Assembly: GCA_038087875.1 (NCBI GenBank)
Contig: CM075987.1
Coordinates: forward strand, 20,462,001-20,522,000
DNA length: 60,000 bases
DNA from: Malacoraja senta
Taxonomy: Eukaryota
Direction of reading: 5' to 3'
The notes under the pieces were generated by a model that worked only from the letters and a program-made list of their open reading frames with translations, ran no database searches and was not told where the DNA came from. Of this stretch, positions 947 to 59,070 are shown in pieces (position 1 is the first letter of the stretch; each line of letters opens with the position of its first letter). A program made the translations under genes and the position numbers.

Positions 947-1879
947 GGCTCGCACCAGGGTCTCTGCCATACCCCGCAACACTGCTCTCTCTCCCCATCC
1001 CCCCACTCACAACAAAGGCAGAGTCCCCCTAGTCCTCACCTTTCACCCCACCAGCCGTCACATACAACAAGTGATCCTCCGTCAGTTTCGCCACCTCCAA
1101 CGTGACCCCACCACTCGCCACATCTTCCCATCTCCCCCTATGTCTGCCTTCCGCAAAGACCGCTCCCTCCGTAACTCCCTTGTCAATTCTTCCCTTCCCT
1201 CCCATACCACCCCCTCCCCTGGTACTTTCCCTTGCAACCGCAAGAGATGCAACACTTGTCCCTTCACTTCCCCCCTCCACTCCATTCCAGGACCCAAGCA
1301 GTCGTTCCAGGTGCGACAGAGGTTCACCTGCATCTCCTCCAACCTCATCTATTGCATTCGCTGCTCTAGATGCCAGCTGATCTACATCGGTGAGACCAAG
1401 CGGAGGCTTGGCGATCGTTTCGCCGAACACCTCCGGTCGGTCCGCAATAACCAACCTGAACTCCCGGTGGCTCAGCACTTCAACTCCCCCTCCCATTCCG
1501 TATCTGACCTCTCTGTCCTGGGTCTCCTCCATGGCCACAGCGAGCAACACCGTAAATTGGAGGAAATGCACCTCATATTCCGCTTGGGCAGTCTACACCC
1601 TGGTGGCCTGAACGTTGAATTCTCCCAATTCTGCTAGCCCTGGCTGTCCCCTCCCCTTCATCAGCCATCTGGTTGTCTCCTCCCCTCCCCCAACCCTCGG
1701 GCTCCTCCTCCTCCTTTTCCTTTTTTCCTTTCTTCTCCCCACCCCCTATCAGTCTGAAGAAGGGTTTCGGCCCGAAACGTTACCTATTTCCTTCGCTCCA
1801 TAGATGCTGCTGCACCCGCTGAGTTTCTCCAGCATTTTTGTGTACCTTCGATTTTCCAGCATCTGCAGTTCCTTCTTTA
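947..1879 (+). mobile_element. 5'-truncated Penelope-like retroelement (GIY-YIG endonuclease end plus terminal repeat) in an SH3GLB2 intron
   Basis: Open frame 948-1637 with PLVLTFHP, Cys cluster CNRKRCNTC and NLIYCIRCSRCQLIYIGETKRRLGDRFAEH (GIY-YIG). Flanked by a perfect 14-bp duplication AAACTAATTCTCCA at 933-946 and 1880-1893. Confidence 0.93.
1752..1783 (+). ncRNA. Minimal type I hammerhead ribozyme motif in the Penelope terminal repeat
   Basis: GT-CTGAAGA-A-GGGT TTCG GCCC-GAAA-CG-TT-AC: core CUGANGA, stem II with UUCG loop, GAAA, palindromic ACGU and a UH site. Confidence 0.7.
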
Positions 1880-2269
1880 AAACTAATTCTCCATCTGCCT
1901 TGGTGTTTTTTTTAATCAATTATCATAAATCTGTCATCTGGTTACTTAACATCTTCACAATGTAAAAGAACATTATTCCTGTGTACTTTTCCAAATGCCC
2001 TTGTGTATTCGTTTTATTGATGGATTGAAAGTTTGGCTGCCTTTGGGAGGATTAATCACCAGCATTTTACTCAACTGCTGGTTTATCATAAAGGTGATCC
2101 CTTGAGGCTGTTACAGAGCAAACCTCCACACTCTCAGGCTGAGCAGTGCGCCTATCCGGATTTGTAAAAATTAACTTGAAATGTTTCAGTAATCCAATTC
2201 TGAAACAACAACCCACCAGATTCTGCCCCTTAATGTTCAGCAGCAACAGCAGGATCCTAGGCAGTGATC

Positions 2270-2620
2270 ATTGCCACAGAGTTTTGGTGTTGGTTGCACC
2301 AAGTTTCAGTGAGTCCCTCAGCATGCTCTCCTGCAGTCTGGAATGGGCCAGTCGGCAACATTCCCTGACGGACGGCTCACTGCGCTGGGAGGCCGACACG
2401 TTTCAGGCAGGCCAAAGAGCGTCTTTCACCAAGTTGATGATCTTCCGGCAGCACTTGGTGCCCGTCTACGAATGTGCCCCTGGAAACAGCCTGTAAATCA
2501 AAAGGTCCTCAACAGTCTCTTCTTTGTGGCGGGAGGAAGATTTTGACGGAACAGGAAGGACGTGCCTGGGAGGGTGGTCCCTCACCAAGTGAGGTCTTGG
2601 TGCTTGTTGCTGAGTTTGTG
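2270..2620 (-). mobile_element. Degenerate Tx1/L1-clade LINE ORF2 C-terminal fragment
   Basis: Minus strand reads KLSNKHQDLTW* ... LIYRLFPGAHS*TGTKCCRKIINLVKDALWPA*NVSASQRSEPSVRECCRLAHSRLQESMLRDSLKLGA, with internal stops. Resembles fish Tx1-type ORF2 ends. Confidence 0.65.
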
Positions 2621-3104
2621 CCAGAGAAACTGTAGATGTAAACAGTTTTATTCAGTGCAAGAAGCAGCCACTACAGAGGAGACCTGGGAGAATATCTCAG
2701 TAGAATCTCCCTGAAATCAAAGAACATTGAAATCTTATACTCTTTAAACACAAAGATAACAGTAGGCGATTGCAATTATAACAATTGAAATTGTATTCAT
2801 AGTTTACTTCATTATTTTGAGTGCAGGCAAATTGTTCCATGCAATTACAGTGAGACATCTAACTGACAGGACACATCAAACAGCTTTGTTGAGACAAAAT
2901 AGTTCTCATCAATATTCTAAAAGCTTCTGAGCACAGAAGCTCAGAACAAATTTGACTATGAATATGATAGACACACAACGCTGGTGTAACTCAGTGGGTC
3001 AGGCAGCATTGTCTGGAAAAAATGAATAGTGACGTTTTGGGGCGGGACCCTTCTTTTGACTATGACAATGTTTGATGTGTTAAAATGGCAATGACTGGAA
3101 GCTT

Positions 3105-3513
3105 CCTTCATCTCAGTCTCGCTATGAAGGCCAACATGCCATTTGCTTTCTTCACTGCCTGCTGCACCTGCATGATTACTTCCAGTGACTGATGTACAAG
3201 GAAATGCAGGAACAATAGACAATAGACAACAGACAATAAGTGCAGGAGAAGGCCATTTGGCCCTTCGAGCCAGCACCGCCATTCAATGTGATCATGGCTG
3301 ATCATCCCCAATCAGTACCCCGTTCCTGCCTTCTCCCCATATCCCCTGACTCCGCTATCTTTAAGAGCCCTATCTAGCTCTCTCTTGAAAGCATCCAGAT
3401 AACCTGTCTCCACCGCCCTCTGAGGCAGAGAATTCCACAGACTCACCACTCTCTGTGAGAAAAAGTGTTTCCTCGTCTCCGTTCTAAATGGCTTACTCCT
3501 TATTCTTAAACTG
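3105..3513 (-). mobile_element. CR1 LINE fragments (RT C-terminal piece, 3' end and UTR)
   Basis: QVQQAVKKANGMLAFIAR fragment; CR1 3'UTR (GGCTCGAAGGGCCAAATGGCCT) with an (ATTGTCT)n tail. Confidence 0.85.
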
Positions 3514-4759: not shown

Positions 4760-5440
4760 TGTATAGGACTTTGATTAGGCAGCATTTGGAGTTATGTGTA
4801 CAATTCTGGTTGCCCCATTACAGGAAGAATGTGGAGGCCTTGGGGAGGTTTTAGAAGAGGTTTACCATAATGCTGCCTGGATTAGAAGGTATTCGCTAAA
4901 AGGAGAGAGCGAACAAACTTGGATTGTTTTTTCTGGTATGTCGGAGGCTGAGGGAGACCTGATAGATGTGCACAAAATTATAAGAGGCACAGATAGGATT
5001 GACAGTCACAGCATCTTTTCCTCGGGTGGTAATGTCAAAGACTAGAGGGTATAGCTCAATGGGGCAACATTTAAAGATGTGCATGACAATTTATTTTTAC
5101 TGAAGATAGGCACAAAATGCTGGACTCAGCGGGACAGGCAGCATCTCTGGAGAGAAGGAATGGGTGATGTTTTGGGTCGAGACCATTCTTCAGACTGCTA
5201 AGGACTGCAGTTCCTTCCTGCACAAGTGTCTTTGCACAGAGTGGTGTGTTCCTGGAATGCACTGACAAGGGTGGTGGTGGAGACAGATATGATAATGGCA
5301 TTTGAGGCTTTTAGATAGGCACATGGATATGTAGGGATATTGATCATGTGCAGGCCAAGGAGATCAGTTTCATTGGGCATCCTGTTCAGCACAGGCATTA
5401 TGGGCCGAAGGGCCTGTCCAGTGCTGTTCTGTTCTCTGTC
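4760..5440 (+). mobile_element. Old CR1 3' fragment interrupted by a Penelope-derived short repeat (about 5101-5220)
   Basis: Degenerate CR1 motifs (GDLIDVHKIIRG, GGGCCGAAGGGCCTG 3'UTR) resume after the insert. Confidence 0.75.
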
Positions 5441-6195: not shown

Positions 6196-6385
6196 AAAAA
6201 AAGGAATGGTTCTTGTGGTGCTGGGGGTCTCGGGCCTGTCCCAGCAGCTCAGTCTTGCTCCGAGCCTGCAAAGAGAGGCTCAGTTAGTAGGGAGTCCTCC
6301 GCTCTCTCCGTGGCTGCACCTGCCTTGGTTTTTAAGGAGTGGGGCTGACGAGGTGCAGGGGAGTTGATGCAACCCTGGCTAATTG

Positions 6386-6590
6386 TGTTGGAAGGAACGG
6401 CAGATACTGGTTTGAACCGAAGATAGACACAAAATGCTGGAGTAACTCAGCGGGACAAGCAGCATCTCTGGATAGAAAGAATGGGTGACATGTTGGGTCT
6501 GAAGAAGGGTCTCGACCCGAAACGTTACCCATTCCTTCTCACCAGAGACGCTGCCTGTCCCGCTGAGTTACTCCAGCGTTTTGTGTCTAA
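6386..6590. mobile_element. Fold-back Penelope-derived short element with hammerhead motif and 12-bp TSD
   Basis: Arms at about 6424-6490 and 6524-6589 are reverse complements. CCTGGCTAATTG is duplicated at 6374-6385 and 6591-6602. Confidence 0.85.
6495..6530 (+). ncRNA. Minimal type I hammerhead ribozyme motif (best-paired copy)
   Basis: GGGT-CTGAAGA-A-GGGT CTCG ACCC-GAAA-CG-TT-ACCC: 4-bp stem I, 4-bp stem II and an intact core. Confidence 0.72.
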
Positions 6591-6884
6591 CCTGGCTAAT
6601 TGGATGCAGCTGCTGCCCCTTTGTGGCCTCAGCTCAGTCACATAATATTGTTGCTTTTCAACTGTCTTGGACTCTTGTTGGCCAAGTGTTGCATTTGATA
6701 ATTTGCAAATGATTGGCTTTATTTGCTAATCAATAATATATTTTTTCATTTATTCATCCATTTTACATAATGGATTAATTTTTGACATCATCTGATTTAA
6801 AAGCTTGCCATTACCATATTAGTTTTATATAAATGCTGCATACTTTTAATTTATTCGTATGATCAAACTGCATGAAAATGTGTT

Positions 6885-8478: not shown

Positions 8479-8593
8479 TATGCACAAAGTATAAGACTGT
8501 ACGGGAGATCTTTGCATAATCCAGCTGGTGCTTTGTGCAGCTGAGGTGGAGAGGACAGATATCCACGTGTAACACTGTCCATTACTACCTCAG

Positions 8594-18071: not shown

Positions 18072-18299
18072 TGTAGGAAGGAACTGCAGATGCTGGTTTA
18101 AACTCTAGATAGACACAAAATGTTGGAGTAACTCAGCGGGACAAGCAGTAGCTCTGGATAGAAGGAATGGGTGAGGTTTCAGGTCGAGACCTTTCAGTCT
18201 GAAGAAGGGTCTCGATCCGAAACGTCACCCATTCCTTCTATCCAGAGATGCTGCCTGTCCCGCTGTGTTACTCCAGCATTTTGTGTCTATCTAGAGTTT
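18072..18299. mobile_element. Fold-back Penelope-derived short element with hammerhead motif (18197-18228, +)
   Basis: About 95-bp arms in inverted orientation; CTGAAGA-A-GGGT CTCG ATCC-GAAA-CG-TC. Possible 7-bp TSD ATAATCT at 18065-18071 and 18300-18306. Confidence 0.85.
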
Positions 18300-19776
18300 A
18301 TAATCTGATGTATCAGAGGATTAATTGTGATCCTTGTTACAAGATGAGCCATGATCACAATGAATGGCGGTGCTGGCTCGAAGGGCCAAATGGCCTCCTC
18401 CTGCACCTATTTTCTATGTTATTTTCTAAGATGTTTCAGATTGCGTAAAGCATGAACTGAATTCAATGCTAGGGCACTAGTTTGAAACTCATTCCATTGA
18501 ATGAAGCGGTGTGTTGCTTATCATCTCTATTTACTTGGATTCTTTCACGTTTACGGTTTAAATATGATTTCAAGCTTAAATATGAAATCAGATCATCAGT
18601 TTTCTAAGCTGCACAAATGAAATTAACAAAACCAGCGCCCAGCCTTATGAAAGAATTAAGTAAGATATCTCGGCATCGTAGACATGATAATGTGTTTTCA
18701 CAGTGACATATAGAATTGACTTATGAGTAATAATTTAAGTTGCTGTTCATAATCACGCAACAAGCAAACTTTGTCTTACACGTGAAATTAATTATATTCC
18801 CAGAAGGAATAAGCTAATAGGCCAGCATTGATAGATTGGAGAAATAACAGAACAAACATAACACTAAGTGTGAGACTTAAACATTAATAGTAATGCAGAC
18901 ATTGGTCTTACTGTCAATTAATTAATGCAGTAAACTCTGATTACCCAATGAGCAGAAATCAAAATAATTTGGCATCGGGTTGACTGGGGCACCATTCCTA
19001 TTCTATATTTAAACTCTTAAGAAGTGCGAGGTGATGTATTTTGGAAGTTGTGTAGGACAGATATCGTAAATGGTAGATCACTAATGAATGCTGATGAACA
19101 GAGGGATCTTGTGGTTTAAGTTCATAGTTCCCTGAAAGTGGCAACTCGGGTAGATAGGGTGGTGATGAAGGCATATGGTTTGCTTGCCGTTATCCAATTG
19201 CCAATGAAATTGAGCATCGATTTGTTGATCATTTCATCCTAATCTGTAAATTGCCACTTTTTGTACCACATTTACAAAACTATACATTACTCTCCTTAAA
19301 CTTCAGACCTTTTGGGATTTGCTGATCCTTGATTCAATTGCAGAGACTGTTGACTTAATTCATACTTCAATCTTTTCCTCACTCTTGTGTCCTTTTGGAA
19401 AAACCACCCTCTACCTAAAATGTAACCCAGCTTTTGGTTTGTTGATATCTGGATTTTCTTTATTTGTAAATTGCTGGCAAGTATAGTCCCATATGATGAC
19501 AACTCTGCTCTAGAGGTGTCCCTTACCAGGGTTCACTATTTTTTGCCTAATTATTCATTGCAAATTCTTAGCCAAGGTCTGTGGTCCATACCAAACCATC
19601 AAGAGTTAAGATCCTGTTGTCCACAGTACAAATATGTTTTCTGTTCTTCTGCATGTTTGTGTTTATGTTGTGTTATCATCATAGTCTGACCATAGCTTAC
19701 ATTGAACATCAGTAACAATGAGCTCCTTCTCGTGTCAAATACTCATCTCCTTTCTTGTTGCTGTGTGGATTTGCAG

Positions 19777-20179: not shown

Positions 20180-20568
20180 TAGTTTAGACATACAGCATGG
20201 TAATAAAAAGCATGATCTGAAGAAGGGTCTCAACCCGAAACTTCATCCATTGTTGCCTGTCCCGTTGAGTTACTTCAGCTTTGTGTGTCTATCGTGGTAA
20301 TAGGCCCTTTGGCACACTGAGACCACACTGACCATTGATCACCCGTTCACACTAGTTCTACATTATCGCACTTTCACATCTAGGGACAATTTACAGAGCC
20401 CAATTAATCTGGAAACCTGCATGCCTTTGGGATGTGGGAGGTAATCAGAGCACCTGGAGGAAAACCACACTGGAGAAAGTGCAAACTCCACGCAGAGAGC
20501 ACACAGGGTCGGGATAGAATGTGAGCACTGTGAGGCAGCAGCTCTGCCAGCTGCACCACCGTGCTGCC
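20180..20568 (-). mobile_element. tRNA-derived SINE (V-SINE-like) with a nested Penelope-derived insert (20206-20294)
   Basis: Minus-strand head GGGCAGCACGGTGGTGCAGCTGG. The nested insert is flanked by TGGTAATA at 20198-20205 and 20295-20302. Confidence 0.75.
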
Positions 20569-22268
20569 CTATGTGATGTGAAGAAGAGTGATGACTGTTC
20601 CAATGTGGCCATTGATTTTGAGGCAGAGTTCTGATTTAATAACAGCGGTGGTGAGGGAATTCTGTGGAACGCTGCAACTCACTCTGACCTTCCCCAAAAG
20701 ATCCCGGTAAAAACGCCCCACAGCAAGGTACAGATCATTGATGATGGGGATTAAGGACATGCACCCATTTGTGCAGATCACCTTAAAACTGTACAGCAGC
20801 TCAAGAGCTCCCAATTCATCAATCTGTACTGTGAAGAAATGCAGAGAGGCCAGGGGACTGAGATGTCAAAAATAAGAAGTTTATATATTTTTGTAAGTGG
20901 AACATGATTCTCTAATGTGAAATTTATCGAGCACTGTAAAGCACCTTGCTCCCAATATTAACAAAAGCGGAGCAACACTGATTCTGTAGAACAATCAAAT
21001 GTGAGATGTCTACTGTTTCACATTTATCACATTTTGGATTCAAACGGTTTGTAACTTTTCACTGAAAAACAAGTAGATGGCACGAACTTGGAGATGGATC
21101 AACCCTCTCCGGCTGCCAGAGTGTTGAGCAGGTTGCTCTGTATTTGCCATGTGACCAATGCTCTGGTCTTTCCATGTCTATTGGGGTGGGAGGAGATCAA
21201 TGATGTTAAAGCTGCAATGTATAGAATACACTGAAGCAACCACTGATGTTATGCTTAGTAAAACATCATATCCTTTACATAGGAAATCAAATTATATTCT
21301 TTACACCAAAGGCATGAATTAATTCCATTTTCTAGTGTACTTTTGTTGCAGCTTTATCATCAGATGGAATCTGGCTTTTCCTGGGTATTTTTCAGGTCTA
21401 AAAAATGTAGCAACATTTTTAATAATTTAATTGATTAACCATGCATGGAATTAAGACTGCTCAAGGAAATAAAAGGTGTGTGTTAATACGTGGGTCTAAC
21501 AGTGATGATTCAGATACCTTTATTGCATCAAGCTGATCCGGTTTATCCTTACCGACTCTTGCAAAGTGACTGCCCACAGCTTGCTCCACCTTGTGTTGGA
21601 TTCTATTTTAATCTGACCCGTTTAACAAATTAATGGGATAGCTGGCTTTTGGCCCTGGTCTTTCATTTTCTAACATTTTATTGATGTTCTCGCTTGAATA
21701 TCTTTTCTGGTTTCCGGGGCGGCGGGATGCGATGATATTTATAAAGCACTGTTTTATATTAATGCTTTTATTTGTTCCTTTCACCGACCAAAAGAATAAT
21801 GATACTTGCAACCCAGTTTTGGCCCTTTGTGCTGAGAATGAGATCTGTCTCTTCAACCATCAAAAGAATTTCCCATTGATGATTCTCTTGCATGAAATAA
21901 ATTGTAGCTCACTTCAGCCAGACTTGGTTTGGTCAGTCAGCCAGACTGCAGTTGACTGCATTGTTTAATATTGGGAAACATTAGTGCCAGTACACATTGG
22001 ATGTGGTGGAGTTTAAACAGAGGTATGAACTACTGGAGATCATTGTTAATCTGTTGGAAATTGTTAATGAATGACATACAATTTCTCCCTCTTTTTATAA
22101 CCTTTTGGTTGTACATTTTAAGACAAGGATTTTTACATAGGGCCATTTAGTCACGAATATTTGTTTCTTTTAACAACTAGCCAGTGAATATAATATATTA
22201 ACTGTTCAGCAATCCGGGCTGGAAGCAAAACATTGGCTGCTCTAGAGATGTATGAACATTTATCATGT

Positions 22269-22618
22269 ATAGGAAGGAACTGCAGATGCTGGTTTAAACG
22301 GAAGATAGACACAAAAAGTTGGAGTAACTCAGCGGGACAGGCAGCATCTCTGGTGAGAAGGAATGGGTGACGTTTTTGGCCGAGACCCTTCTTCAGACTG
22401 GTTAAGGATAAGGGTAGTGAGAGATATAGGCGATGATGTAGAGAGATAAAGAACAATGCAATGAATGCATAAAAGTAACAATGATGAAGGAAGCAGGCCA
22501 TTGTTAGCTGTTTGTTTGGTGAAAACGAGAAGCTAGTGTGACATGGGTGGGAGAGGGATAGCGAGGCTTCTTCACTTCTTCCCACCTGTCCCGCTGAGTT
22601 ACTCCAGCTTTTTGTGTC
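22269..22618 (-). mobile_element. Penelope terminal-repeat insert with a short inverted end and 18-bp TSD
   Basis: TATGAACATT(T/C)ATCATGT at 22251-22268 and 22619-22636. A degenerate hammerhead motif lies on the minus strand at about 22365-22398. Confidence 0.85.
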
Positions 22619-28790: not shown

Positions 28791-29049
28791 GTAAGTATAA
28801 ATCTTGGATTTATGATATAATGCGTAACCAGTGAAAACTCCTGTCTATGATAACAAAGAGAGATAATTTCAGCACTTTAATCTGTATCTGCCCACCTTCC
28901 ATGAAACTAAAACCTCCTTTCGTATTTCATCTCCCTTCCTTGCATGGAGGAGTATTTCTCCCATCCAGTAAAACCCATGACTTGCAGTCTTGACTGTATT
29001 GAAAGTAACACATCGGGACCTTGGGTGTAAACTGATACACGTGAACAGT

Positions 29050-29183
29050 GCAGGAAGAAACTGCAAATTTTGGTTTAAACCGAAGATAGACACAAAAAGC
29101 TGGAATAACGCAGCGGGCCAGACAGCATCTCTGGAGAAAAGGAATAGGTGACGTTTCGGGTCGAGACTCATCTTCAGACTCTT
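29050..29183 (-). mobile_element. Penelope-derived short insert with hammerhead motif (29147-29180, -)
   Basis: Minus strand AGT-CTGAAGA-T-GAGT CTCG ACCC-GAAA-CG-TC-ACC. TSD-like CACGTGAA(C/G)AGT at 29038-29049 and 29184-29195. Confidence 0.8.
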
Positions 29184-30918: not shown

Positions 30919-31734
30919 GTGAGTCTCCATTGAGTTGTTCCTCAGGGGCTTCCTCGACTCGATCACTGTTATCCTCATCTTCCACAAGTGGACAGCGGCT
31001 TTTTAAAAAAGCTAACATTTCACATCCATATCGTGGTGCAGACACACATCAACCACAGTTTTGTTGAATATTCGATCAAGCTCAGTTGGTTGCTTGAGGG
31101 TGCACGGGTTACGGGGAGAAGGCAGGAAAATGGGATTAGGAGGCAGAGATCAGCCATGATTGAATGGCAGAGTAGACTCGATGATCCGAATGGCCTAATT
31201 CTACTCCTATAACTTGTGAACTTGCTTGTGATATCGTTTATCATAATGAACTTGGATTTCCCTGTATTAATTAATTCTGCTCGATAGCATCTCCACTTTT
31301 TTTTTTAAAGCTATCCCAATGTTTTTTTAAAGATTTGTAACCAAATGAGCTGATAACTATCCAGCGTGTTTGTTCTTTCATTGACAGAATACATTTAATT
31401 TTAATTTGTGCACAAACATCCCTAGTGGAATCATAACACCTATTTTTCAGCAAGTGGATCTTGTATTGATTTGATTGAAGAGTAGATTATGATTTGTACA
31501 GCATTGTAACGTGGTTGTAAACAAGTATCACTTGCCTCAATGATCATTATTTTACTGTATTGTGAGATTAAGCCAAATTAGAGTATTGAGGATCAAGGAT
31601 AATTTGCGCTTGGATGTAATTCAGTCTTCATTTTAAGGTCATATGATCTGACCTTATTTCCTTTATAAATTGCTCTCCATGTTTCCAATGGGCCCAGGCT
31701 GCCTATATGTCACATAATACTATATACCTCCTGC

Positions 31735-32263
31735 AAAACACAAAGTGTTGGAGGAACTCAGCATGTTAGGCAGCATCTGGGGAGGGAATGGACAGGCAAC
31801 ATTTCAGGTCAGGACCCGTTCTGAAATGACATCTGTTCATTCCCTCAGCAGATGCTGCCTGATCCACTGAGTTACCCCAGCAATTTCTGTTTTGTTCAAG
31901 ATTCTAGCATCTGCAGTCTCCAGTGTTACAATTATATCGTTTAGTTTTGTTCCCAGATACAGCATGGAAACAGGCCCTTTGGCCCAGCAAGTCCACGCTG
32001 CCCATCAATCACACCAGTTTCATGTTATCCCACTTTCTCACCAAATTTCCTGCATATTAAGGGCACTTTTTTCAGAGACCAATTAACCTATAAACCGCAT
32101 ATCTTTGGGATATGGGAGGAAACCGTATCACTTGGAGGAAGCTCACTCACATGGTCATGGGGAGAATGTGCAAACTCCACTTAGACAGGACCCGAGGTCA
32201 GGATCGAACCCAGGTCTCTGGAGCTGTGAGGCAGCAGCTCTACCAGCTGCGCCACTCTGCCAC
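31735..32263. mobile_element. Old fold-back Penelope-derived repeat (about 31735-31920) followed by a minus-strand tRNA-derived SINE (about 31940-32263)
   Basis: Inverted arms GGAACTCAGC...GGCAGCATCTG and CAGATGCTGCC...CTGAGTTACCCCAGCA. SINE B-box-like GGGTTCGATCC on the minus strand. Confidence 0.7.
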
Positions 32264-35289: not shown

Positions 35290-36270
35290 AGTAATCTGGA
35301 CTACACCTCCCATCTTTCCTCTTGCAATGATACCATCCCCTACTCTCAATTTCTCCACCTCTGCCCCCAAGATAAGGCTTTCCACTCTACGACATCCAAG
35401 ACGTCCCCTTTCTTTGGTAAACGTGGTTTCTCCCTCCCCCCATCCCTGCTGACCTAGGTTGATCCCTCACCAGCGTCTCCTCTGTATCCCTTAGTTTTGC
35501 CCTCGTTCACCCTCCCTCTAGATGAAACAAGGATAGTTTCCTTGGTCCACGCCTTTCATCCCACCAGCCTCAGCATCCAACACATCATTCTCCAATATTT
35601 CCGTCACCTCCAATGTGATGCCACCACCAGTCACGTCTTCCCCTTTCTGCAGAGAATGTTCCCTCCGCAACTCCTTGCTTCACTCATCCCTTCCCAGTCC
35701 CTATACCTCGTCCTCACCTACATCCAGGGAACCCAGCAGTCCTTCCAGGTGTGACAGAGGTTCACATGTACCTCCTCTAACCTCATATACTGCATCTGGT
35801 GTTCCTGATATGGCCTCCTGTACATCGGCAAGACCAAGCATAGACTCAGTTACCATTTCACACTTGCACTCGGTCCGCCAAGGTCTACTGGATCTCCTAG
35901 TTGGTAACCATTTTAACTCTGCTTCCTATTCCCATACCTGTACGCGCACCAATTTCTCCCCACCCCCTTCCTTTCCATCTAGATTCCTTCCTCTAGCTTC
36001 ACAAATTGTAACTCTTCAATCTTTTTGTCTCGCACCTGTCTTTGTATCTCTGGCCTTTGTCCAACCATCTGCCTATCCAAATCACCCCTCGCCTATATCC
36101 ACCTATTACCTGCCCGGCTTTGTCCACGCCTCATCTCTTCCAGGTTTCTACCCCCCCCCCCCCCAAGCACAGTCAGGCTGAAGCAGTGTCCTGACCCCAA
36201 AAGTCACCTATCTGTGTTCTCCAGAGATGCCGCTTTGCCAGCTGAGTTACTCCAGCATTTAGCGTCACTT
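35290..36270 (+). mobile_element. Degenerate Penelope-like element (RT thumb, GIY-YIG, terminal repeat)
   Basis: LDYTSH, IPYSQFL, SLVHAFHPTS, LQYFRHLQCDATT, SNLIYCIWCS*YGLLYIGKTK. Parallels the 947-1879 element but carries stops and frameshifts. Confidence 0.85.
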
Positions 36271-38423
36271 TGTATTTCATTTAACTCTGCCCTGTTCATG
36301 CTCAATTTCATCAACATATCTTGTTTAATGCACATCCAAAACTATCGTTGTTAAGTGCACCCACAAGTGCAAACTCGATGCCTGATGTTGGCAAAGGCTT
36401 GACACTGTAACGACTAGGCGGCTTTTAAAAAATCGAAGCAGGTCGTGAGAGAGAATTTCCACGAGACTTCGTCAAATTGGAGCAAACACATGCACCGTGT
36501 AAACCCAGCCATCCCTTTTGAAATAAGCTTCATGTTGAAACTAATTAAACTGTATTTGCAGATCTCACTGTTGCTTATCAGCTTCGACACAGAGTTTTGT
36601 TGACTATAGTGAAAGCATTTGTTTGGGAACAAGGTGAGAGGATTCCTTTCAGGCTCTTTGTACGATACCTTAATTGGTGCATGTGGCAATAAATGTGAAC
36701 TTGAACTTTGACTTGACCAAGGTGTGCACCAACTCCCTTCAACTTATTCTGAGGAAGAATCTGATCATTCAGTAATTGTCGAACGCTACAACAATGCCGG
36801 CACATCAGAAACTGCTTCATTGCTGCAGAGTGGTTTGGGTGATCCTAAGATGGTACACAAGGATGTAGAGTCCTGGAGCTGTACAGGATGGAAACAAACC
36901 CTTCAGCCCACCCTGTCTATGCCGATCAAGTCCCATTTTCCTGCATTTAGCCCAAATCCCTCATCGTCCGAACTATCCATATATCTGTCTATCTTTTGAG
37001 TTGTAATTGTTTTTGCTTGTATAGCTTCCTCTGGCTTCTCATTCCAGATACGGAGTACCCTCCAAGTGAAGGTGTTCCTGAGGTCCCTCTTAAATCTCTC
37101 CTCCTCAACTCAACTCACATTTTCGATCTTCTCCCCTGGGAAAAACACAGAATCTTCACTTTATCCACTCATCACTCAACTTCCTTTGCTACAAAGAAAA
37201 GATCTCACCCTGTCCAACCTGTGAGGAGCAGATCTTTGTGTTTTTACGCTTTCCTCTCTGCTGTGATGCCTGTGTGCCTCAGCTTGTGTACTCAGCATCT
37301 ATTGATCCTGATTAGTGTGAGGAGCAGATTCTGTGATCCTTCAGCTTGCGTGTTGGGCAAGAGTCCAGCTGCTCCATTCCGTTAAGTGATGAAAGTAGCC
37401 ATGGAAATAATGACTGAGAAATGGGTAAACCTGATGTTGTTGCAGCCTCTGGCAGTAACTACCAGTGGGGACAGGAACTCATTGACAGGAAGTCCAAAGT
37501 TTTCAAAACCATGACCTTTTGGAAGACATAGACAACAAAACCAAGATGGCAGCTCAGTCAGCAAGGGTAGGACCCTTGGGTGTCATTGAGAATTGATGGG
37601 TGGGATCAGGAAGATTGAGAGAACCTCTGCCACAGTTGACATCCTTTTGAAGGCTGAAGTGCACTCCTTGGTCAAGTGTGAGCCTACTGGCGAGAGTCGG
37701 ACTGAAAGGAACACGTTTTATTGCATTGGGTGACCAATTTGAATATGCGTGTTGCTCTTTACTGATTTATGGAATCCATTAAAACAGTCCAAAAATGGGG
37801 TGTGCTTGACCTCAACATTGGAAGTGAAATATATCACTGTGCATCAAATAGAGCCCAAACATCGACAGTAAAAGGATTTAAATAAATGTTTATTACATCT
37901 TTTATTCCATACTTTTAAAATCTTCCACGCAATGTAGTAGGTGTTGATAGATATATTAAAACTAATAAAATGACACTCCTTCCAGCCCCGTGCACACATA
38001 TCCCATGCTCCATTCCATGCATTTGAAACATTGCAACGCCTATAGTCGCCAACTTTCCTTCAGGACTTTTATGAATTTGTTTTTCAGTAATTAATTTACT
38101 AAAATAAGACGAAACTGAACCTTAAATTCCAGAGCTAATTCAAAATTCAAGGCACCAGAGAAGCAAATTTGCTGCTTTATTATAAATGGGGAAAGTCAGA
38201 CCTGTTTGGTGTTAAAATGGTGTTGAACATTAAGTATTTTGCAAGGAATTGTTAATAAGACGATATGTGGTCTCTATATTGATACCAGTGGCAAAATGAT
38301 TCAAAATTTCAAACATTTAAACGTGTATCAAAAATGTGCAGCATTTTATGATTCACCACCCTCTGACTAAAATTACCTGCTGTCCTTCCATCTTTTTTTT
38401 TTCCTTTCACAGGTGTCCTGGAA

Positions 38424-40652: not shown

Positions 40653-41257
40653 TCAGAAGGGATTAACTGAACCTCCGCTGATATTGCTACCATCTGTAAT
40701 AGACACAAGATGTTTTAATTGACAACTGTGGGGTTTGAGTTAAAAGAGTCAGAAACCTTTGAGGACTAATCAATGAGGTTCAGTTATGATTTAGTTCCAG
40801 TCCATTTCAGTCCAATCTAGTTTAATTTGCCAATCCCATTGTTCTCATCCAGTTCAGAGCTCTTGATCCAACCTTGATCCAGTCTACTGAGTAGCAAGTG
40901 ATTAGGGTCAAGGATACACTGTCCAGGGTAGTCATGGAGACAGATTCAATGGTGGCTTTCCAAGAGAGCTGAAAGGAAGGAATTTGCAAGGCAGTGGGGA
41001 GAGGGTGAGGGATTTGGGACAAACTGGATTGTTCTTACACAAAGCCAATATGAGCTTAATGGGCTGTTTGGCCTCCACCTGTGCTCTCACCATCCCATTG
41101 CTGTACTAATATCAGTTTACATGTGATAAACATCCACATTGCTTCAATTAACATTTAGGATCTAAACTTTGAAGAATCTAATGAGCCAGAATCAGCAGGT
41201 ACTAATCCATACATTGCAAGGGGTAGGTGTTGCAAATGAAGGACAAGTCACTCCTAC

Positions 41258-41395
41258 CTCATGTGAGAAGATGATGGCCAGAATTCCTGACAACAGGCAG
41301 CAGAAGACGGTGACCAGAACTGATTCCACCATGTAGTCCTTAGGAGATCTCCTCTGTTCCTGTGCTGATTGGAATCCAGGCAATGGATAATTATA
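41258..41395 (-). CDS. PRRT1B: PRRT1B coding exon 3, 138 nt (CD225 domain, first hydrophobic segment)
   Basis: Minus strand ttgcag|TAT AAT TAT...CAT GAG|gtagga. Translates YNYPLPGFQSAQEQRRSPKDYMVESVLVTVFCCLLSGILAIIFSHE, with the dispanin PKDY...FCC...G..AI..S signature. Confidence 0.95.
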
Positions 41396-45147: not shown

Positions 45148-45613
45148 CTGAAGAAATGCAAAATATGAACAGCTTTGTATTTGATATATAATATCTTATA
45201 CAATAAGATATCTAGTACACCCTAAAGAACTATATGGCAAATAAAGTATATTCAAAGTGTGTAGTCCGTGTTACAAATTTTATGCCTACTTTTTAATAAG
45301 TAGGAATAAATCTGACTATCTTGCACACTTTCAACTGTAACTAGAAGTTCTTAATATTCAAGGTATGTTTCAACATTAATTGGGGAAAGAGGCTGACGCC
45401 AAATCCAATGATCATCGATCATTGACTCTGATAGTCAAAATCATCCCCGGCCTCTGATTCCATGGTGCTAACATTACCATCATTGAACTTGTAAAACTGT
45501 GTTCACTGGACATGGATATTGATGAACATTTATAGCCCATTCATACTTCCCCCTGACTGAGAAGCCAGGAAAGAATCAAATACTTTGATGGGACTTTAGT
45601 CACATACATAACA

Positions 45614-45712
45614 AAGATAGACACCAAATGCTGGCGTAACTCTGTGGGACAAGCAGCATCTCTGGAGAAGAGAAATGGGTGACGTTTCGGTTGGAGACCC
45701 TTCTTCAGGCTG
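45614..45712 (-). mobile_element. Penelope-derived short repeat with hammerhead-like motif (45677-45710)
   Basis: Minus strand CTGAAGA-A-GGGT CTCC AACC-GAAA-CG-TC-ACCC, with one stem II mismatch. It is sense to the PRRT1B pre-mRNA. Confidence 0.75.
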
Positions 45713-47163: not shown

Positions 47164-47514
47164 CATAGGAAGGAATTGCAGATGCTGGTTTAAACCGAAG
47201 ATAGACACAAAATGCTGGGGTAACTCAGCGGGACAGGTAGCATCCCTGGAGAGAAGGAATGAGTGTCATTTTGGGTCAAGACCCTTCTTCAGACTGAAAG
47301 TCACGGCAAAGGGAAACGAGAGATGTAGACAATCATGTCGAGAGACATAGAACAGATGAATGAAAGATAAGAAAAAAAGTAATAATGATAAAGGAAACAG
47401 GCCATCATTATTAGCTATAAATACATGAGAATGAAAGCTTGTGTGGCTTGGGTGGGGAAGGGATGGAGAGAGAGGGGAATGCAGGGGTTACTTGAAGTTG
47501 GATAAATCAATATC
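47164..47514 (-). mobile_element. Penelope terminal repeat with endonuclease C-terminal remnant
   Basis: Minus strand DIDLSNFK* followed by the terminal repeat. CAAAGAG is duplicated at 47157-47163 and 47515-47521. Confidence 0.8.
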
Positions 47515-48967: not shown

Positions 48968-49140
48968 GAAACAAGGAACTGCAGATGCTGGTTTACAAAA
49001 GTGCTGGGGTAACTCAGAGGGTCTGGCAGCATCTCTGGACAACCTTCCCATGAAGTAGCTTCACGACCCGAAACGTCACCCATCCATGTTCTCCAGGGAA
49101 GCTGCCTGACCCGCTGAGTTACTCGAGCACTCTGTGTCCT
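48968..49140. mobile_element. Fold-back Penelope-derived short element near the 5' end of PRRT1B intron 1
   Basis: Inverted arms GTGCTGGGGTAACTCAGAGGGTC...GCAGCATC and GCTGCCTGACCCGCTGAGTTACTCGAGCAC; GACCCGAAACGTCACC remnant. Confidence 0.75.
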
Positions 49141-49372
49141 CCCCACCTTAAACTTGGGGGGGGTCTGTCAGTACCAGACACGGCTGTTAGGGGGGGAGAG
49201 GTGCAAAACTACAAGATCCAGCCGTAAAGCTGATCAATAACTTCTCTGGACCACATATAAACTCGCAAAAGAAACGCAGTTGCAAACGCCAATGAGTTTG
49301 GCGGACATTTGCCCAACTTTCAGCCAGTCAATGCGGGTGAAGAAACCCTCCCTCGGGCTGTGAATGACATAC

Positions 49373-50309: not shown

Positions 50310-50347
<38 letters not shown>

Positions 50348-50410: not shown

Positions 50411-50466
50411 GTATGTGCGTCTTGTGTTCCAGGGAGAGCAAAACCCAGCCTATCTGATCTCTCCTT

Positions 50467-50782
50467 GTAGACACAAAAAGCTGGAGTAACTCAGCGGGAC
50501 AGGCAGCATCTCTGGAGAGAAGGAATGGGTGATGATTCGGGTCGAGACCCTTCTTCAGACCGGTTAGGGATAAGGGAAACGAGAGATATAGACGGTGATG
50601 TGGAGAGATAAACAACAATGAATGAAAGATATGCAATAAAGTAACGATGATAAAGGAAACAGGCCATTTGCAGGGTGAAAATGAGAAGCTAGTGCGACTT
50701 GGGTGGTGGAGGGATAGGGAGAGAATGCCGGGGCTACCTGATGTGGGAGAATTCAATATTCACGCCACTGGGCTGTAAATTG
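50467..50782 (-). mobile_element. Penelope terminal repeat with endonuclease C-terminal remnant
   Basis: Minus strand NLQPSGVNIEFSHIR* (compare SLHPGGLNVEFSQFC* of the 947-1879 element), followed by the same terminal repeat as at 22.3 and 47.2 kb. Confidence 0.85.
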
Positions 50783-52801: not shown

Positions 52802-52827
52802 GGGGGGGGGGGGGGGGGGGGGGGGGG
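52802..52827. repeat. Poly-G tract
   Basis: About 26 consecutive G. Another G run lies at about 55350-55368 inside a CR1 remnant. Confidence 0.9.
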
Positions 52828-56715: not shown

Positions 56716-56718
<3 letters not shown>

Positions 56719-56781
<63 letters not shown>

Positions 56782-56993
56782 AAATGCTGGAGTAACTCAG
56801 TGGGACAGGCAGCATCTCTGGAGGGAAGGAATGGGTGATGTTTAGGGTCGAGACGCTTCTTCTCTGGACTGAAAGAAGGGTCTCGACCTGAAACGTCAGC
56901 CATTCCTTCCCTCCAGAGATGCTGCCAGTCCCGCTGAGTTATTGCAGCATTTTGTGTCTATCTTTGGGTTAAACCAGCATCTACTGTTCCTTC
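56719..56993. mobile_element. (AT)n microsatellite (56719-56776) fused to a fold-back Penelope-derived element
   Basis: Arms at about 56777-56860 and 56873-56958 are inverted. TSD-like TTCCTTC(A/T)CAT at 56710-56720 and 56994-57004. Confidence 0.82.
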
Positions 56994-57337
56994 TTCCTTC
57001 TCATTCCTGATTTATGCCTTGTAGACAGTGGAAAGACTTTGAGTGTCAGGAAATTGGTCACTTGTCGTAGGATACAGGGTCGCTGACCTGCTATTGTAAC
57101 CATGATATGTATGTGACTGGTCACGTGAGTGTTAGGTAACCCTGTGATGTTACTGGTGATGGAAATGCCATTGAATATCAAACAAGAAATGATCTCTAGT
57201 TGAGATGGTTTTTGCTTGGCATTCTTGTGCAAAAACTACTTGCAACATGTCAGCCTGTGCCTCACTGCTGACCAGATCTTACTGTATACAACCAAGTGCT
57301 ACTCCATTTGCTGGGAAGTTGTGAATGAAATTGGAAC

Positions 57338-57628
57338 TCACCGAATAGTGAAAGGCCTGCATAGAGCGACTGTGGGGAGGATGTTTCCACTAGTGGGAGA
57401 GTCTAGGACCAGAGGCTATAGCCTCAGTATAAAAGGATGAACATTTGGAAAGGAGATGAGGAGGAATTTCTTCAGTCAGAGGGTGGTGAATCTGTGGAAT
57501 TCATTGCACAGGGGTTATGGGGAGAAGGCAGGAGGATGGGATTGAGAGGGAAAGATAGATCAGCCATGATTGAATAGTGGAATAGACTTGATGGGTTGAA
57601 TGGCCTAATTCTGCTCCTATAACTTATG
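57338..57628 (+). mobile_element. CR1 3' fragment
   Basis: RIVKGLHRATVGRMFPLVGESRTRGYSLSIKG followed by the 3'UTR. Confidence 0.85.
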
Positions 57629-58059
57629 AACATTGTGTGAACTCCTTGCTGATTCTGTGATGGAAGGAAGAGCATTGAAGATGGTTGGGTCTAAGCACTG
57701 CGCTGAGGATGGGATGATGGACTTTCAGTAACATCACCATCTTTCTTTGTGCAAGGTGTGACATTATCTCTGGAGCATTCTTCTTTTGATGTCCATTGAT
57801 TTAAGTTTTACCAGGTTCTTCATGCCACATTTGGTCAACTGGTGCCTTGATATTGAGGACAGTCATTCTGATAACACCTGGAGCCACAGACAAGCAGCAT
57901 GAAAACAACTTGGCAATGCTGACAAGCTGCCCCATCTACATTAGTCCCACCAGTCCACGTTTGGCCCATATCCCGCGAAACATTTTTTATCCATGTACTT
58001 GTTCAAATGTCTTTTAAATGTTGCTACAGTACCTGCCTCTACTACCTCCTATCTTGATT

Positions 58060-58350
58060 GGTTGGGCAGGTCGGCTGAGGAATGGTCGATGGTTTAATAC
58101 ATGAGAAGTTTGAGATGTTGCATTTTGGGAAGTCTAACCAGGGCAGGACCTAGGCAGTGAACGGCAGGGACCTGGGCGGTGTTGTAGGGAAGAGGGATGT
58201 AAGAGTGCAGGTACATTCCTTGAAAATGGCATCACTGGTAGATAGGGTAGTCAAGAAGACTTTTGGTATATTGGCCTTCATCAGTCAGAGTATTGAGTAT
58301 GGAACTTGGGATGTTATGTTACAGTGGTACAAGATATTGGTGAGGCCGGC
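58060..58350 (+). mobile_element. CR1 internal RT fragment
   Basis: VQVHSLKMASLVDRVVKKTFGILAFISQSIEY...LQWYKILVRP. Confidence 0.8.
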
Positions 58351-58909
58351 AGATATGCTGCCATTCAGCTGAGATCTTCAGCAAGGACTTCAGGTCCCCA
58401 AGACCATGTTTAGAAGAGAACTGAAGCTCCATTATCTGGTCTAACACGTATCCCTCACCCAACACCACTGGATTATTTGCTCATTAGTGGGATCTGAAAA
58501 TAGGAATTGTTTAAAGAAAAATCACGCCTGTAGTTGTTACTGGTGAGATTAGAATACCTGGCCTATCCCTAGCATCTCCTTAGCTTAATGGTAGTGAGGG
58601 AGCTTTTTCATGAACCACTGCAGTCCATGTGGTGGTGTTGTTCCCGCTTGTAGCATCTCATAGGTGGGACATTTGAGGTCCTGGTTGCCCTCCTGATAGT
58701 TCCCTCAATGTCATTTGGAAGGAAAGTGGACTTCTCCTGTGACCTTAACAACCAAAGCCACTTGCTCCTCTAACACCCCCAACCCCACTGACTCCATGTA
58801 CCACTGAATGCAGGAATAACTTCATCCCCTCTGTTAGCAGGTTACTGAATAGATCCCCCATGAGTTAATGATATTATGCCTATCTCCCAACCAACCTCAT
58901 TGTGGCCCT

Positions 58910-59070
58910 GTGTTTAAGAAGGAACTGCAGATGCTGAAAAATCGAAGGTGGACAAAAGTGATGGAGAAGAATATCAGACTGAAGAAGGGTTTCGGCCCGA
59001 AACGTTGCCTATTTCCTTCGCTCCATAGATGCTGCTGCACCCGCTGAGTTTCTCCAGCACTTTTGTCTAC
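58910..59070. mobile_element. Penelope-derived fold-back insert with hammerhead motif (58979-59006, +) and perfect 15-bp TSD
   Basis: CCTCATTGTGGCCCT at 58895-58909 and 59071-59085. CTGAAGA-A-GGGT TTCG GCCC-GAAA-CG-TT; same subfamily as the terminal repeat at 1751-1879. Confidence 0.88.

What the first reader, a model, noticed from the sequence alone, without database searches (positions are those of the whole stretch)
1752..59006. Dispersed family of minimal hammerhead-ribozyme motifs carried by Penelope-derived repeats
Seen: the motif CTGAAGA-A-[GGGT loop (A/G)CCC]-GAAA-CG-T(C/T) recurs across the window. Near-intact copies are at 1752-1783 (+), 6495-6530 (+), 18197-18228 (+), 29147-29180 (-), 45677-45710 (-) and 58979-59006 (+). 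Decayed copies lie near 5165, 20217, 22370, 23159, 36178, 47270, 49065, 50530, 56870 and 59826. Stem II pairing is kept between subfamilies (GGGT-CTCG-ACCC, GGGT-TTCG-GCCC, GGGT-CTCG-ATCC with G.U pairs). Established: CUGANGA/GAAA/UH is the hammerhead core; Penelope-like terminal repeats are known to carry minimal type I hammerheads with a very short palindromic stem III thought to work as dimers; an extra base after A9 occurs in some natural hammerheads. Inference: this genome holds a high-copy family of ribozyme-bearing non-autonomous elements, about one per 3-4 kb here, that ORF or gene annotation would miss.
Basis: partly seen in the sequence, partly recalled or inferred. Interest (0 to 1): 0.8.

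Follow-up and report, generated by a model that had tools for sequence, protein, structure and literature searches.

The report
Penelope retroelement ends carrying minimal hammerheads
The recurring motif is real: it is the small hammerhead-ribozyme motif already known from Penelope-like jumping genes, and it is spread here in huge numbers because broken-off tail ends of those elements litter this genome.

Summary
The motif CTGAAGA-A-GGGT-loop-RCCC-GAAA-CG-TY has 10 matches with up to 3 mismatches in the window, against 0 in shuffles. The intact descriptor has 58,086 matches in the 1.94 Gb genome, against 0 for the reversed control.

It sits in a roughly 95 or 130 nt unit that forms the 3' end of canonical Penelope-like elements (PLEs). 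A GIY-YIG ORF ends 116 nt upstream of the copy at 1754. Partial tandems elsewhere in the genome show repeat-ORF-repeat, with the motif in both repeats around an open 1224-aa RT/GIY-YIG frame.

PLE hallmarks are present:
- heavy 5' truncation;
- two 3' ends 34-36 nt apart, the "tail";
- 17 head-to-head pairs among 81 units in 220 kb, 14 of them one long arm plus one short arm.

The motif matches the published PLE minimal hammerhead in its core boxes, the bulge after A9, G10.1-C11.1 and the ACGU palindrome.

Against ribozyme function: there is no real covariation, no Rfam hammerhead hit, a 2-bp helix I, and no read ends at the cut site. Cleavage remains untested.

Verdict: a correct reading of a known kind. 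The copies are mostly dead PLE fragments. The scan has found such motifs before on other DNA.

The parts
858..1637 (+). 3' remnant of a Penelope-like element ORF (C-terminal GIY-YIG endonuclease part). It is 99% identical to many genomic copies.
   Evidence: Pfam GIY-YIG E 2.5e-4, 21.7 bits, just under the 22.6 cutoff. The translation shows C-x4-C-x2-C, then LIY..CxxC..YIGET, read by eye. There are 147 scored genomic matches at 97-100% identity.
1638..1753 (+). CT-rich 116-nt 3' UTR between the stop codon and the hammerhead. It ends in the conserved TATCAGT.
   Evidence: This stretch cannot be aligned between lineages, whereas the unit after it can.
1754..1781 (+). Intact minimal hammerhead motif of the young lineage: CTGAAGA-A-GGGT-TTCG-GCCC-GAAA-CG-TT.
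1782..1880 (+). Rest of the unit, long form, including the roughly 31-nt 'tail' GATTTTCCAGCATCTGCAGTTCCTTCTTTAA.
6384..6610 (.). Head-to-head pair. The long arm is on the minus strand (6500 to 6384). The short arm is on the plus strand and carries an intact hammerhead at 6499-6526.
18072..18302 (.). Head-to-head pair. The long arm is on the minus strand and the short arm on the plus strand. The hammerhead at 18199-18226 is intact, with one G-U pair in stem II.
58913..59076 (.). Head-to-head pair of the young lineage, with an intact hammerhead at 58979-59006 (+).
29049..29177 (-). Solo long-form unit. The core boxes are kept, one stem II pair is broken, and the bulged A is replaced by T.
45612..45708 (-). 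Solo short-form unit. The core boxes are kept and one stem II pair is broken.
20217..20296 (+). Unit with the core kept but the ACGT palindrome lost (ACTT) and an internal deletion.
22266..22395 (-). Long-form unit that continues upstream for about 170 nt or more of 3' UTR, a stretch shared with the copies at 47292- and 50558-. G12 and C11.1 have decayed.
35537..36181 (+). ORF remnant of a second, divergent PLE lineage, 42-52% identical at the protein level to the young one.
   Evidence: tblastn. Pfam found no family for it.
36179..36274 (+). Decayed unit directly after that second ORF. A9 and G12 are changed.
56771..56995 (.). Head-to-head pair. The short arm on the minus strand ends in an (AT)n tract and the long arm is on the plus strand. 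Both hammerheads have decayed.
31729..31918 (.). Old head-to-head pair of the 'CCTGTCCATTCC' lineage.
48970..49154 (.). Old head-to-head pair of the 'CCATGTTCTCC' lineage.
5092..5193 (-). Decayed unit with CpG decay at G12 and at the palindrome. It is preceded by an inverted fragment of the last ~17 nt of a tail.
50465..50558 (-). Short-form unit with upstream 3' UTR. The core has decayed (GAATCAT).
47166..47291 (-). Long-form unit with upstream 3' UTR and CpG-decayed core.

Best explanation
The dispersed repeats are the 3'-terminal ~95 nt (short form) or ~130 nt (long form) of canonical, endonuclease-bearing Penelope-like retroelements.

Shown: layout of the young lineage.
- ORF stop, then 116 nt of CT-rich UTR.
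- A 28-nt minimal type I hammerhead motif.
- About 66 nt to the first 3' end.
- A further 34-36 nt 'tail' to the second 3' end.
- About 36 nt to the ATG of the next unit.
In partial tandems the motif therefore lies in both pseudo-LTRs.

Inferred from published PLE biology: how the copies arise.
- The PLE protein starts reverse transcription at two internal RNA sites, which gives the two 3' ends.
- It stops early, which gives 5' truncation.
- It often primes from both cut DNA ends, which gives head-to-head pairs with a tail on one arm only.
- The copies then decay neutrally, fastest at their CpGs.

Inferred, not shown: the motif works only in transcripts of source elements. Two copies pair through the ACGU palindrome to build helix III, probably with the element's own protein helping. 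The RNA is cut after GUC or GUU. What that cut achieves for the element is still open in the literature.
For: PLE identity.
- GIY-YIG hit on the ORF that ends 116 nt before the copy at 1754.
- 147 scored genomic matches at 97-100% identity, with open frames up to 1247 aa.
- The 1224-aa frame carries RVT_1 followed by GIY-YIG.
- Partial tandems L021 and L023 have the motif both before and after the ORF. The unit spacing of 3918 bp follows from the coordinates.

PLE hallmarks, as listed in PMC8557442 (passages).
- 5' truncation.
- 17 head-to-head pairs, taking in 34 of 81 units.
- Two 3' ends 34-36 nt apart, seen in this genome and as loose ends at 2930-2932 and 2966 in reads and contigs of four runs from other organisms.
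- The tail is on one arm only in 14 of 17 pairs, where about 7 are expected at random (binomial P 9e-4).

Hammerhead features named in PMC4209133.
- Core boxes, a nucleotide between A9 and 10.1, G10.1-C11.1, and palindromic 15.2/16.2.
- 58,086 genome matches to the intact descriptor, against 0 for the reversed control.

Conservation between lineages. In two further lineages (334 and 3,880 matches) the majority of the 100 listed copies reads, by eye, the same core and stem II. These lineages differ from the main one only in loop II. The UTR just upstream cannot be aligned between lineages.

A published relative. The Anolis Poseidon RNA printed in PMC11167929 shows the same build: CUGAGGA, one extra base, helix II, then GAAACGUC.
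Against: - No Rfam hammerhead family matches, whether at gathering score, at E up to 10 on the whole window, or on two 76-91 nt stretches.
- There is no real covariation. 71.8% of cells pair against 70.7% in shuffles (16 of 500 shuffles reach this). The covariation score is 0.158 against 0.144 (31 of 500).
- Helix I is only 2 contiguous pairs plus 2 more beyond a 2x2 loop, with 58% of cells paired.
- The hammerhead fold is not the predicted minimum. It scores -4.2 and -3.2 kcal/mol, against -8.0 and -8.3 for a competing hairpin.
- In poly(A) RNA reads of a related organism the unit is covered about equally on both strands, 92% of laid reads run on into unlike sequence, and no place shows many molecules beginning or ending. 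This covers about 6% of the run, and the species is not the window's own.
- G variants at the free position N7 number 229, only 1.35 times the 170 at the essential A6. Most genomic variation is therefore neutral decay and says nothing about function.
- In print: hammerhead mutants did not affect Poseidon insertion in vitro and no RNA-seq ends were seen at its cut site (PMC11167929). PLE clades without hammerheads proliferate well (PMC8557442).
Confidence: 0.85

Rival explanations
1. The 28-nt block is conserved for a reason other than self-cleavage, and the hammerhead likeness is non-functional or merely carried along. One option is an RNA site bound by the PLE protein near the reverse-transcription start. 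Another is part of the pseudo-LTR core promoter: the conserved TCAGT just upstream looks like an initiator (my recollection of the TCAGTY consensus, from no call).
For: - The block is no better conserved than other blocks of the unit. Non-CpG column identity is 0.89 against 0.84, and the first columns are inflated by local alignment.
- No covariation.
- Helix I is very weak.
- The hammerhead fold is not the minimum-energy fold.
- In 17 pairs, 24 of 34 arms start at model position 8 or less, next to TCAGT. That would fit an RNA 5' end there.
- In print: the hammerhead is dispensable for insertion in vitro, and 'HHRs may simply parasitize PLEs'.
Against: - All 11 fixed core letters, the bulge, G10.1-C11.1 and the ACGU palindrome are present together. 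A chance match at that level inside about 250 nt of non-coding sequence is very unlikely (my rough estimate, about 1e-6).
- The same architecture recurs in PLEs of unrelated animals.
- The differences between lineages fall in loop II, N7, H17, position 1.1 and a U-A/U-G pair, all places a hammerhead tolerates.
- No pile-up of read starts was seen at TCAGT.
Confidence: 0.12
2. The short units are a distinct non-autonomous family, SINE-like or retrozyme-like, that amplifies on its own, for example through small circular RNAs made by double hammerhead cleavage.
For: - Copy number is very high. Extrapolating 50 units per 160 kb of evenly spaced stretches gives about 0.6 million copies.
- Many units start within a few bases of the hammerhead.
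- In print: animal retrozymes are proposed to derive from PLE pseudo-LTRs (preprint 10.64898/2026.07.22.740005; abstract and passages).
Against: - I saw no head-to-tail arrays of the short unit in 220 kb. The few adjacent direct copies I saw were either of different lineages (L027) or separated by about 60 nt of unrelated sequence (L030), plus one 35-nt partial duplication (L034).
- 5' ends vary from inside the unit to well upstream, and 7 of 81 units run on into a PLE ORF remnant.
- The two 3' ends and the one-sided tail are the PLE signature.
- Helix III and the loop contacts of retrozyme hammerheads are absent.
Confidence: 0.05

Closest known systems
Minimal hammerheads (min-HHR) in the pseudo-LTRs of metazoan Penelope-like elements (Cervera and de la Pena 2014, PMC4209133; main text read)
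   Same: - CUGANGA / GAAA / UH boxes.
- One unpaired base between A9 and 10.1.
- G10.1-C11.1.
- No helix III hairpin, only a palindrome (ACGU) that can pair between two copies.
- The motif is present in both flanking repeats.
- Most genomic copies are single motifs in truncated elements, some close together on opposite strands.
   Different: - Helix II is 4 bp with a tetraloop here, whereas the paper describes 6-8 bp.
- Helix I has 2 contiguous pairs, whereas the paper describes 4-5 (2 in D. virilis).
- The motif varies very little in sequence between lineages, whereas the paper stresses extreme variability.
- The count is far higher: 58,086 intact matches against about 4,000 and 9,000 in that paper's 'remarkable' genomes. 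The descriptors differ, so the figures are not strictly comparable.
Hammerhead of Poseidon from Anolis carolinensis (PAc; PMC11167929, passages)
   Same: - Same build: an extra base after A9 and an identical GAAACGUC segment.
- It lies in the repeat near the ORF start.
- The element has two internal reverse-transcription start sites 30-40 nt apart, which explain the 'tail'.
- The protein cuts and extends both DNA strands.
   Different: - In PAc the ORF starts inside the ribozyme. Here the ATG lies 163 nt downstream of the motif's first base.
- PAc showed no difference in start site between top and bottom strand in vitro. Here 14 of 17 genomic pairs have one arm with the tail and one without.
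- The endonuclease here has the CX4CxxC linker, which PMC8557442 says Penelope/Poseidon lack. The lineage is therefore more Neptune-like (read by eye; tentative).
Animal non-LTR retrozymes and amphibian or schistosome type I hammerhead repeats (PMC7229834, search listing only; preprint 10.64898/2026.07.22.740005, abstract and passages)
   Same: - Type I hammerheads with a weak palindromic helix III, thought to act as dimers.
- A proposed origin from PLE pseudo-LTRs.
   Different: - Those are head-to-tail tandem arrays with canonical helix I and II loop contacts, and they give circular RNAs.
- Here the units are dispersed, solo or head-to-head, and lack helix III altogether.
Rfam hammerhead families (type I, type III and the others held in release 15)
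   Same: The catalytic core letters.
   Different: No match at any threshold tried. I take this to be because the models expect a helix III hairpin, but that is my inference.

Membership tests
Metazoan PLE minimal hammerhead (PMC4209133) | Catalytic boxes CUGANGA ... GAAA ... UH in type I order | tested here: met
   (15 of 81 units in 220 kb keep every box). One search gives 58,086 genome matches, against 0 for the reversed control.
Metazoan PLE minimal hammerhead (PMC4209133) | [quoted passage not shown] | tested here: met
   An A in at least 90% of 106 aligned copies (column listed as nearly invariant).
Metazoan PLE minimal hammerhead (PMC4209133) | Conserved G10.1-C11.1 pair | tested here: met
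   Of 89 distinct rows: G-C 59, G-U 11, A-U 3, unpaired 15, gap 1.
Metazoan PLE minimal hammerhead (PMC4209133) | Palindromic 15.2-16.2 with no helix III hairpin, allowing a dimer | tested here: met
   The segment reads ACGU. A15.1/U16.1 pair in 73 of 89 rows. C/G pair in 50 rows and U/G in 10, the losses being CpG decay.
Metazoan PLE minimal hammerhead (PMC4209133) | Location in both pseudo-LTRs of a PLE | tested here: met
   L021 and L023: the motif lies before and after the 1224-aa ORF.
Metazoan PLE minimal hammerhead (PMC4209133) | Helix I of 4-5 bp and helix II of 6-8 bp | tested here: not met
   Helix I has 2 contiguous pairs plus 2 beyond a 2x2 loop, with 58% of cells paired. Helix II is 4 bp. 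The same paper reports a 2-bp helix I in D. virilis.
Metazoan PLE minimal hammerhead (PMC4209133) | [quoted passage not shown] | tested here: not met
   The covariation measures are barely above shuffles (16/500 and 31/500), and changes are mostly wobble or decay.
Self-cleaving hammerhead ribozyme (function) | Site-specific self-cleavage after H17 | not testable with these tools
   The only indirect look (poly(A) reads of a related organism) showed no pile-up of ends.
Rfam hammerhead families | Score at or above the family's gathering threshold | tested here: not met
   No hammerhead family listed, even at E up to 10.
Canonical EN+ Penelope-like element (PMC8557442) | Single ORF with RT followed by a C-terminal GIY-YIG endonuclease | tested here: met
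   RVT_1 at residues 708-877 (E 6.9e-6) and GIY-YIG at 1128-1161 (E 1.5e-3). Both are below Pfam's gathering scores. The window copy's GIY-YIG hit has E 2.5e-4.
Canonical EN+ Penelope-like element (PMC8557442) | CCHH motif with two Cys between GIY and YIG; upstream CX2-5CxxC linker (absent in Penelope/Poseidon) | tested here: inconclusive
   Read by eye in the translation: CNRKRCNTC; LIY-C-IR-C-SRCQLIYIGET; His residues follow. No alignment to reference PLE endonucleases was made.
Canonical EN+ Penelope-like element (PMC8557442) | Partial tandems (pseudo-LTR), inverted 5'-truncated copies, and a 30-40 bp tail often at one end only | tested here: met
   Tandems. Pairs: 17, with 14 of 17 having one tailed arm. 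Tail of 34-36 nt.
Non-LTR retrozyme | Head-to-tail tandem arrays of a short hammerhead-bearing unit | tested here: not met
   None seen among 81 units in 220 kb. I read this from the coordinates, with no dedicated search.

The most novel reading that the evidence does not exclude
The hammerhead may sit at the very 5' end of the RNA that is copied. On this reading, transcripts start at the conserved TCAGT three bases upstream of the motif. Short RNAs started in a pseudo-LTR would then be the main template, behind roughly 0.6 million mini-copies making up about 3.6% of the sampled DNA. The strict 'one tailed arm, one untailed arm' rule in head-to-head pairs would mean that the two DNA ends of one integration use different reverse-transcription start sites in vivo, which the published in vitro system did not show. 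Hammerhead cutting would then remove a capped 31-nt leader, not trim a co-transcript.
Probability: 0.12. Interest if true: 0.5.

Novelty: new member of a known kind. Interest (0 to 1): 0.2.

Why it matters
For annotation:
- About 3.6% of the sampled DNA (7,890 of 220,000 bases) is this one unit.
- Its head-to-head pairs imitate microRNA precursors in Rfam scans, so they should be masked as PLE fragments.

For PLE biology:
- The genome offers a very large natural sample of integration products, with young 99%-identical copies and open 1224-aa frames.
- That sample could be used to study the two start sites, the one-sided tail and double-ended priming.
- It could also test at last whether PLE hammerheads cut in vivo.

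It does not reveal a new kind of ribozyme or element.

Tried and rejected
- **Rfam.** I ran the whole window at gathering score and at E up to 10, plus two short stretches. No hammerhead family appeared. The only hits were sub-threshold microRNA-like matches caused by the inverted pairs.
- **Covariation.** The test on 106 copies gave nothing convincing.
- **Column conservation**. The hammerhead block is not clearly better kept than the other blocks, and local alignment biases the first columns.
- **Natural 'mutation scan' by genome counts**. G at N7 gives 229 copies and G at A6 gives 170. The numbers are too alike to be informative, so I stopped after two positions.
- **Folding of monomers and dimers**. 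The hammerhead fold is not the predicted optimum. I printed a dimer hammerhead structure string but did not score it.
- **RNA runs**. No RNA holder is listed.
- **5' ends of solo copies by flank matching**. The result was noisy and I do not rely on it.
- **More genome DNA.** The sample therefore stayed at 220 kb of unbiased sequence plus 24 chosen loci.
- **Papers.**
  - Lunse et al. (RNA Biol, PMC5785218) is not held. I know it only from the reference list and summary in PMC6765202.
  - A search for Penelope + shark + hammerhead ribozyme found one paper (PMC6155905), and its 'shark' refers to the shape of the motif.
  - I did not open the supplementary figures of PMC4209133, which hold the vertebrate motif alignments. 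They may already show a near-identical motif.
- **A consistent 5' end for the longer 'A' copies.** I considered that they might form a separate element. I rejected this because three such units in random stretches directly follow PLE ORF remnants about 64% identical to the young lineage.

Full report
**1. The observation**

- The strict pattern CTGAAGANGGGTN{3,6}CCCGAAA has 4 matches in the window, and none in 100 dinucleotide-preserving shuffles.
- The 27-letter form with up to 3 mismatches has 10 matches, again with none in shuffles.
- Printing the copies with their flanks shows that the motif is the first part of a longer repeat.
- An nhmmer scan with two real copies as queries finds 31 units in the window. 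It finds 50 more in sixteen evenly spaced 10-kb stretches of the same genome, two of which hold none. That is 81 units, or 7,890 of 220,000 bases.

My descriptor asks for all core boxes, four stem II pairs (G-U counted) and a palindromic 15.2/16.2.
- 15 of the 81 units keep every core box, and 8 are fully intact.
- In the window the intact ones are at 1754, 6499, 18199 and 58979.
- Genome-wide the intact descriptor CTGANGANGGGTNNNNRCCCGAAACGTH has 58,086 matches, against 0 for the reversed control.
- One 32-letter form alone has 8,834 matches.

**2. What the repeat is**

An open frame at 858-1637 (+) ends 116 nt before the copy at 1754.
- It gives a GIY-YIG hit (E 2.5e-4, just under Pfam's cutoff).
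- Its translation shows, by eye, a C-x4-C-x2-C stretch followed by LIY-CxxC-YIGET.
- Searching the window's own genome with it returns 147 scored matches at 97-100% identity, with open frames up to 1247 aa, out of 108,412 first-look candidates.

I fetched four full-length loci.
- Each carries a 1224-aa stop-to-stop frame, and the one I scanned (L021) has RVT_1 followed by GIY-YIG (E 6.9e-6 and 1.5e-3, both below gathering).
- In L021 and L023 a truncated upstream ORF, the motif, the full ORF and the motif again follow one another at a 3918-bp spacing. This is the partial tandem that forms pseudo-LTRs.

The layout read from these loci is:
- stop codon, then 116 nt of CT-rich UTR ending in TATCAGT;
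- the 28-nt motif;
- about 66 nt to the short-form 3' end (...GTGTACCTTC);
- a further 34-36 nt (GATTTTCCAGCATCTGCAGTTCCTTCTTTAA..) to the long-form end;
- about 36 nt to the ATG. The ATG lies 163 nt after the first base of the motif.

A second, divergent ORF remnant lies at 35537-36181. It is 42-52% identical at the protein level, and a decayed unit follows it at 36179. In the 220 kb, 7 of 81 units lie directly behind a PLE ORF remnant by my reading: window 1754 and 36179, plus one each in L030, L034, L036, L039 and L040.

**3. Anatomy of the dispersed copies**

3' ends fall in two classes: 41 units end at model positions 83-113, 34 at 116 or later, and 6 elsewhere. The same two ends, at 2930-2932 and 2966 of L021, appear as loose ends in reads or contigs of four runs from other, related organisms.

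Seventeen head-to-head pairs take in 34 of the 81 units.
- In 14 pairs one arm is long and one short.
- No pair is long plus long, one is short plus short, and two have an arm of another length.
- From the overall frequencies about 7 long-plus-short pairs are expected (binomial P 9e-4).

PMC11167929 reports for an Anolis Poseidon element that reverse transcription starts at two adjacent internal RNA sites matching the tail. It also reports that the protein cuts and extends both DNA strands. In vitro the start site did not differ between strands (passages).

The copies here are therefore best read as ordinary PLE integration products, most of them dead on arrival. One short arm ends in an (AT)29.5 tract.

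**4. Is the motif a hammerhead of the PLE kind?**

PMC4209133 (main text) names the features that emerged for metazoan PLE minimal hammerheads. They are the catalytic boxes, a nucleotide between 9 and 10.1, G10.1-C11.1, and palindromic 15.2-16.2 with no helix III, so that two copies form the active dimer.

All of these are met here.
- The extra base is A in at least 90% of 106 aligned copies.
- G10.1-C11.1 is G-C in 59 and G-U in 11 of 89 distinct rows.
- The segment A15.1-C-G-U16.1 reads ACGU.
- The Poseidon RNA printed in PMC11167929 has the same build, including GAAACGUC.

Not met:
- Helix II is 4 bp, where the paper describes 6-8.
- Helix I is 2 contiguous pairs (GU with AC) plus 2 beyond a 2x2 loop, with only 58% of cells paired.
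- The families are not 'full of covariations'.

**5. Evidence for and against function**

For:
- Two further lineages, picked by their different downstream spacers, have 334 and 3,880 matches. In each, the majority of the 100 listed copies reads, by eye, CTGAAGA-A-GGGT-CC(C/T)G-ACCC-GAAA-CG-TC.
- Across all the lineages I saw, the differences lie in loop II, N7, H17, position 1.1 and a U-A/U-G pair. These are places a hammerhead tolerates.
- The UTR just upstream cannot be aligned between lineages.

Against:
- No Rfam hammerhead family matches at any threshold.
- Covariation is at the level of the controls.
- The block is not clearly better conserved than other blocks of the unit (with a stated bias).
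- G variants at the free N7 number 229 and at the essential A6 170, so genomic variation is mostly neutral decay.
- The hammerhead fold is not the predicted optimum. A competing hairpin pairs GAAGAAGGGU with the ACCCAUUCCUUC that follows the cut site.
- In poly(A) RNA reads of a related organism the unit is covered equally on both strands, 92% of laid reads continue into unlike sequence, and no place shows many molecules beginning or ending.
- The literature is equally unsettled. Activity in vitro is low even as dimers. Cleavage is protein-assisted but dispensable for insertion. PLE clades without hammerheads thrive.

**6. Verdict**

The kind has been in print since 2014, and earlier reports of this scan reached the same verdict on other genomes.

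The new points are modest:
- a very large count of intact motifs;
- unusually low sequence variation between lineages;
- a short helix II;
- a clean one-tailed-arm rule in head-to-head pairs.

The copies are not a separate non-autonomous family. I did not identify the organism. My impression that the repeat recalls cartilaginous-fish DNA is recollection only and rests on no call.

Noticed in passing
window 18127-18272, 56802-56932, 47513-47663: At the first two places, sub-threshold Rfam microRNA-like matches (mir-641 at 46.6 bits, MIR2118 at 43.8 bits and others) fall on head-to-head PLE pairs, which fold into long hairpins. The hits at 47513-47663 are another inverted repeat that I did not check. 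Such pairs could mislead microRNA prediction, and they could be sources of hairpin RNA.
   Followed up: partly
window 56719-56777: An (AT)29.5 microsatellite abuts the 3' end of the short arm of the pair at 56771-56995. This fits the microsatellite insertion bias reported for some PLE clades (PMC8557442).
   Followed up: partly
unit positions about 75-81 and 105-111 (e.g. window 1828-1834 and 1858-1864): The word CCAGCAT occurs twice in the unit, each time about 12-20 nt before one of the two alternative 3' ends. It could be part of what places the two reverse-transcription start sites.
   Followed up: no
window 1757-1795 and the same place in other copies: GAAGAAGGGU in the 5' half of the hammerhead can pair with ACC(C/U)AUUCCUUC just after the cut site. 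This gives the predicted minimum-energy fold and competes with the ribozyme fold. The word ACCC occurs twice, once as the 3' strand of stem II and once right after the cut.
   Followed up: partly
L034:1006-1041; L021:2844-2875 in reads of run X24: A 35-nt hammerhead-only fragment lies directly before a full unit, joined by AGT. 18 RNA reads of a related organism show a joint that goes back 32 nt over the same stretch. This looks like template switching at the RNA 5' end.
   Followed up: no
window 12909-13943 (-): An open frame of 344 aa has a clear RVT_1 hit (E 1.8e-14). The PLE ORF does not match it in tblastn, so it belongs to another retroelement, probably LINE-like.
   Followed up: no
window 41192-41554 (-): An open frame has a CD225 / interferon-induced transmembrane protein domain hit (E 3.6e-10). 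It may be an exon of a host gene.
   Followed up: no
window as a whole versus L025-L040: The window holds 31 units in 60 kb, while sixteen evenly spaced 10-kb stretches hold 50 in 160 kb. The window is about 1.7 times richer than the sampled average.
   Followed up: no
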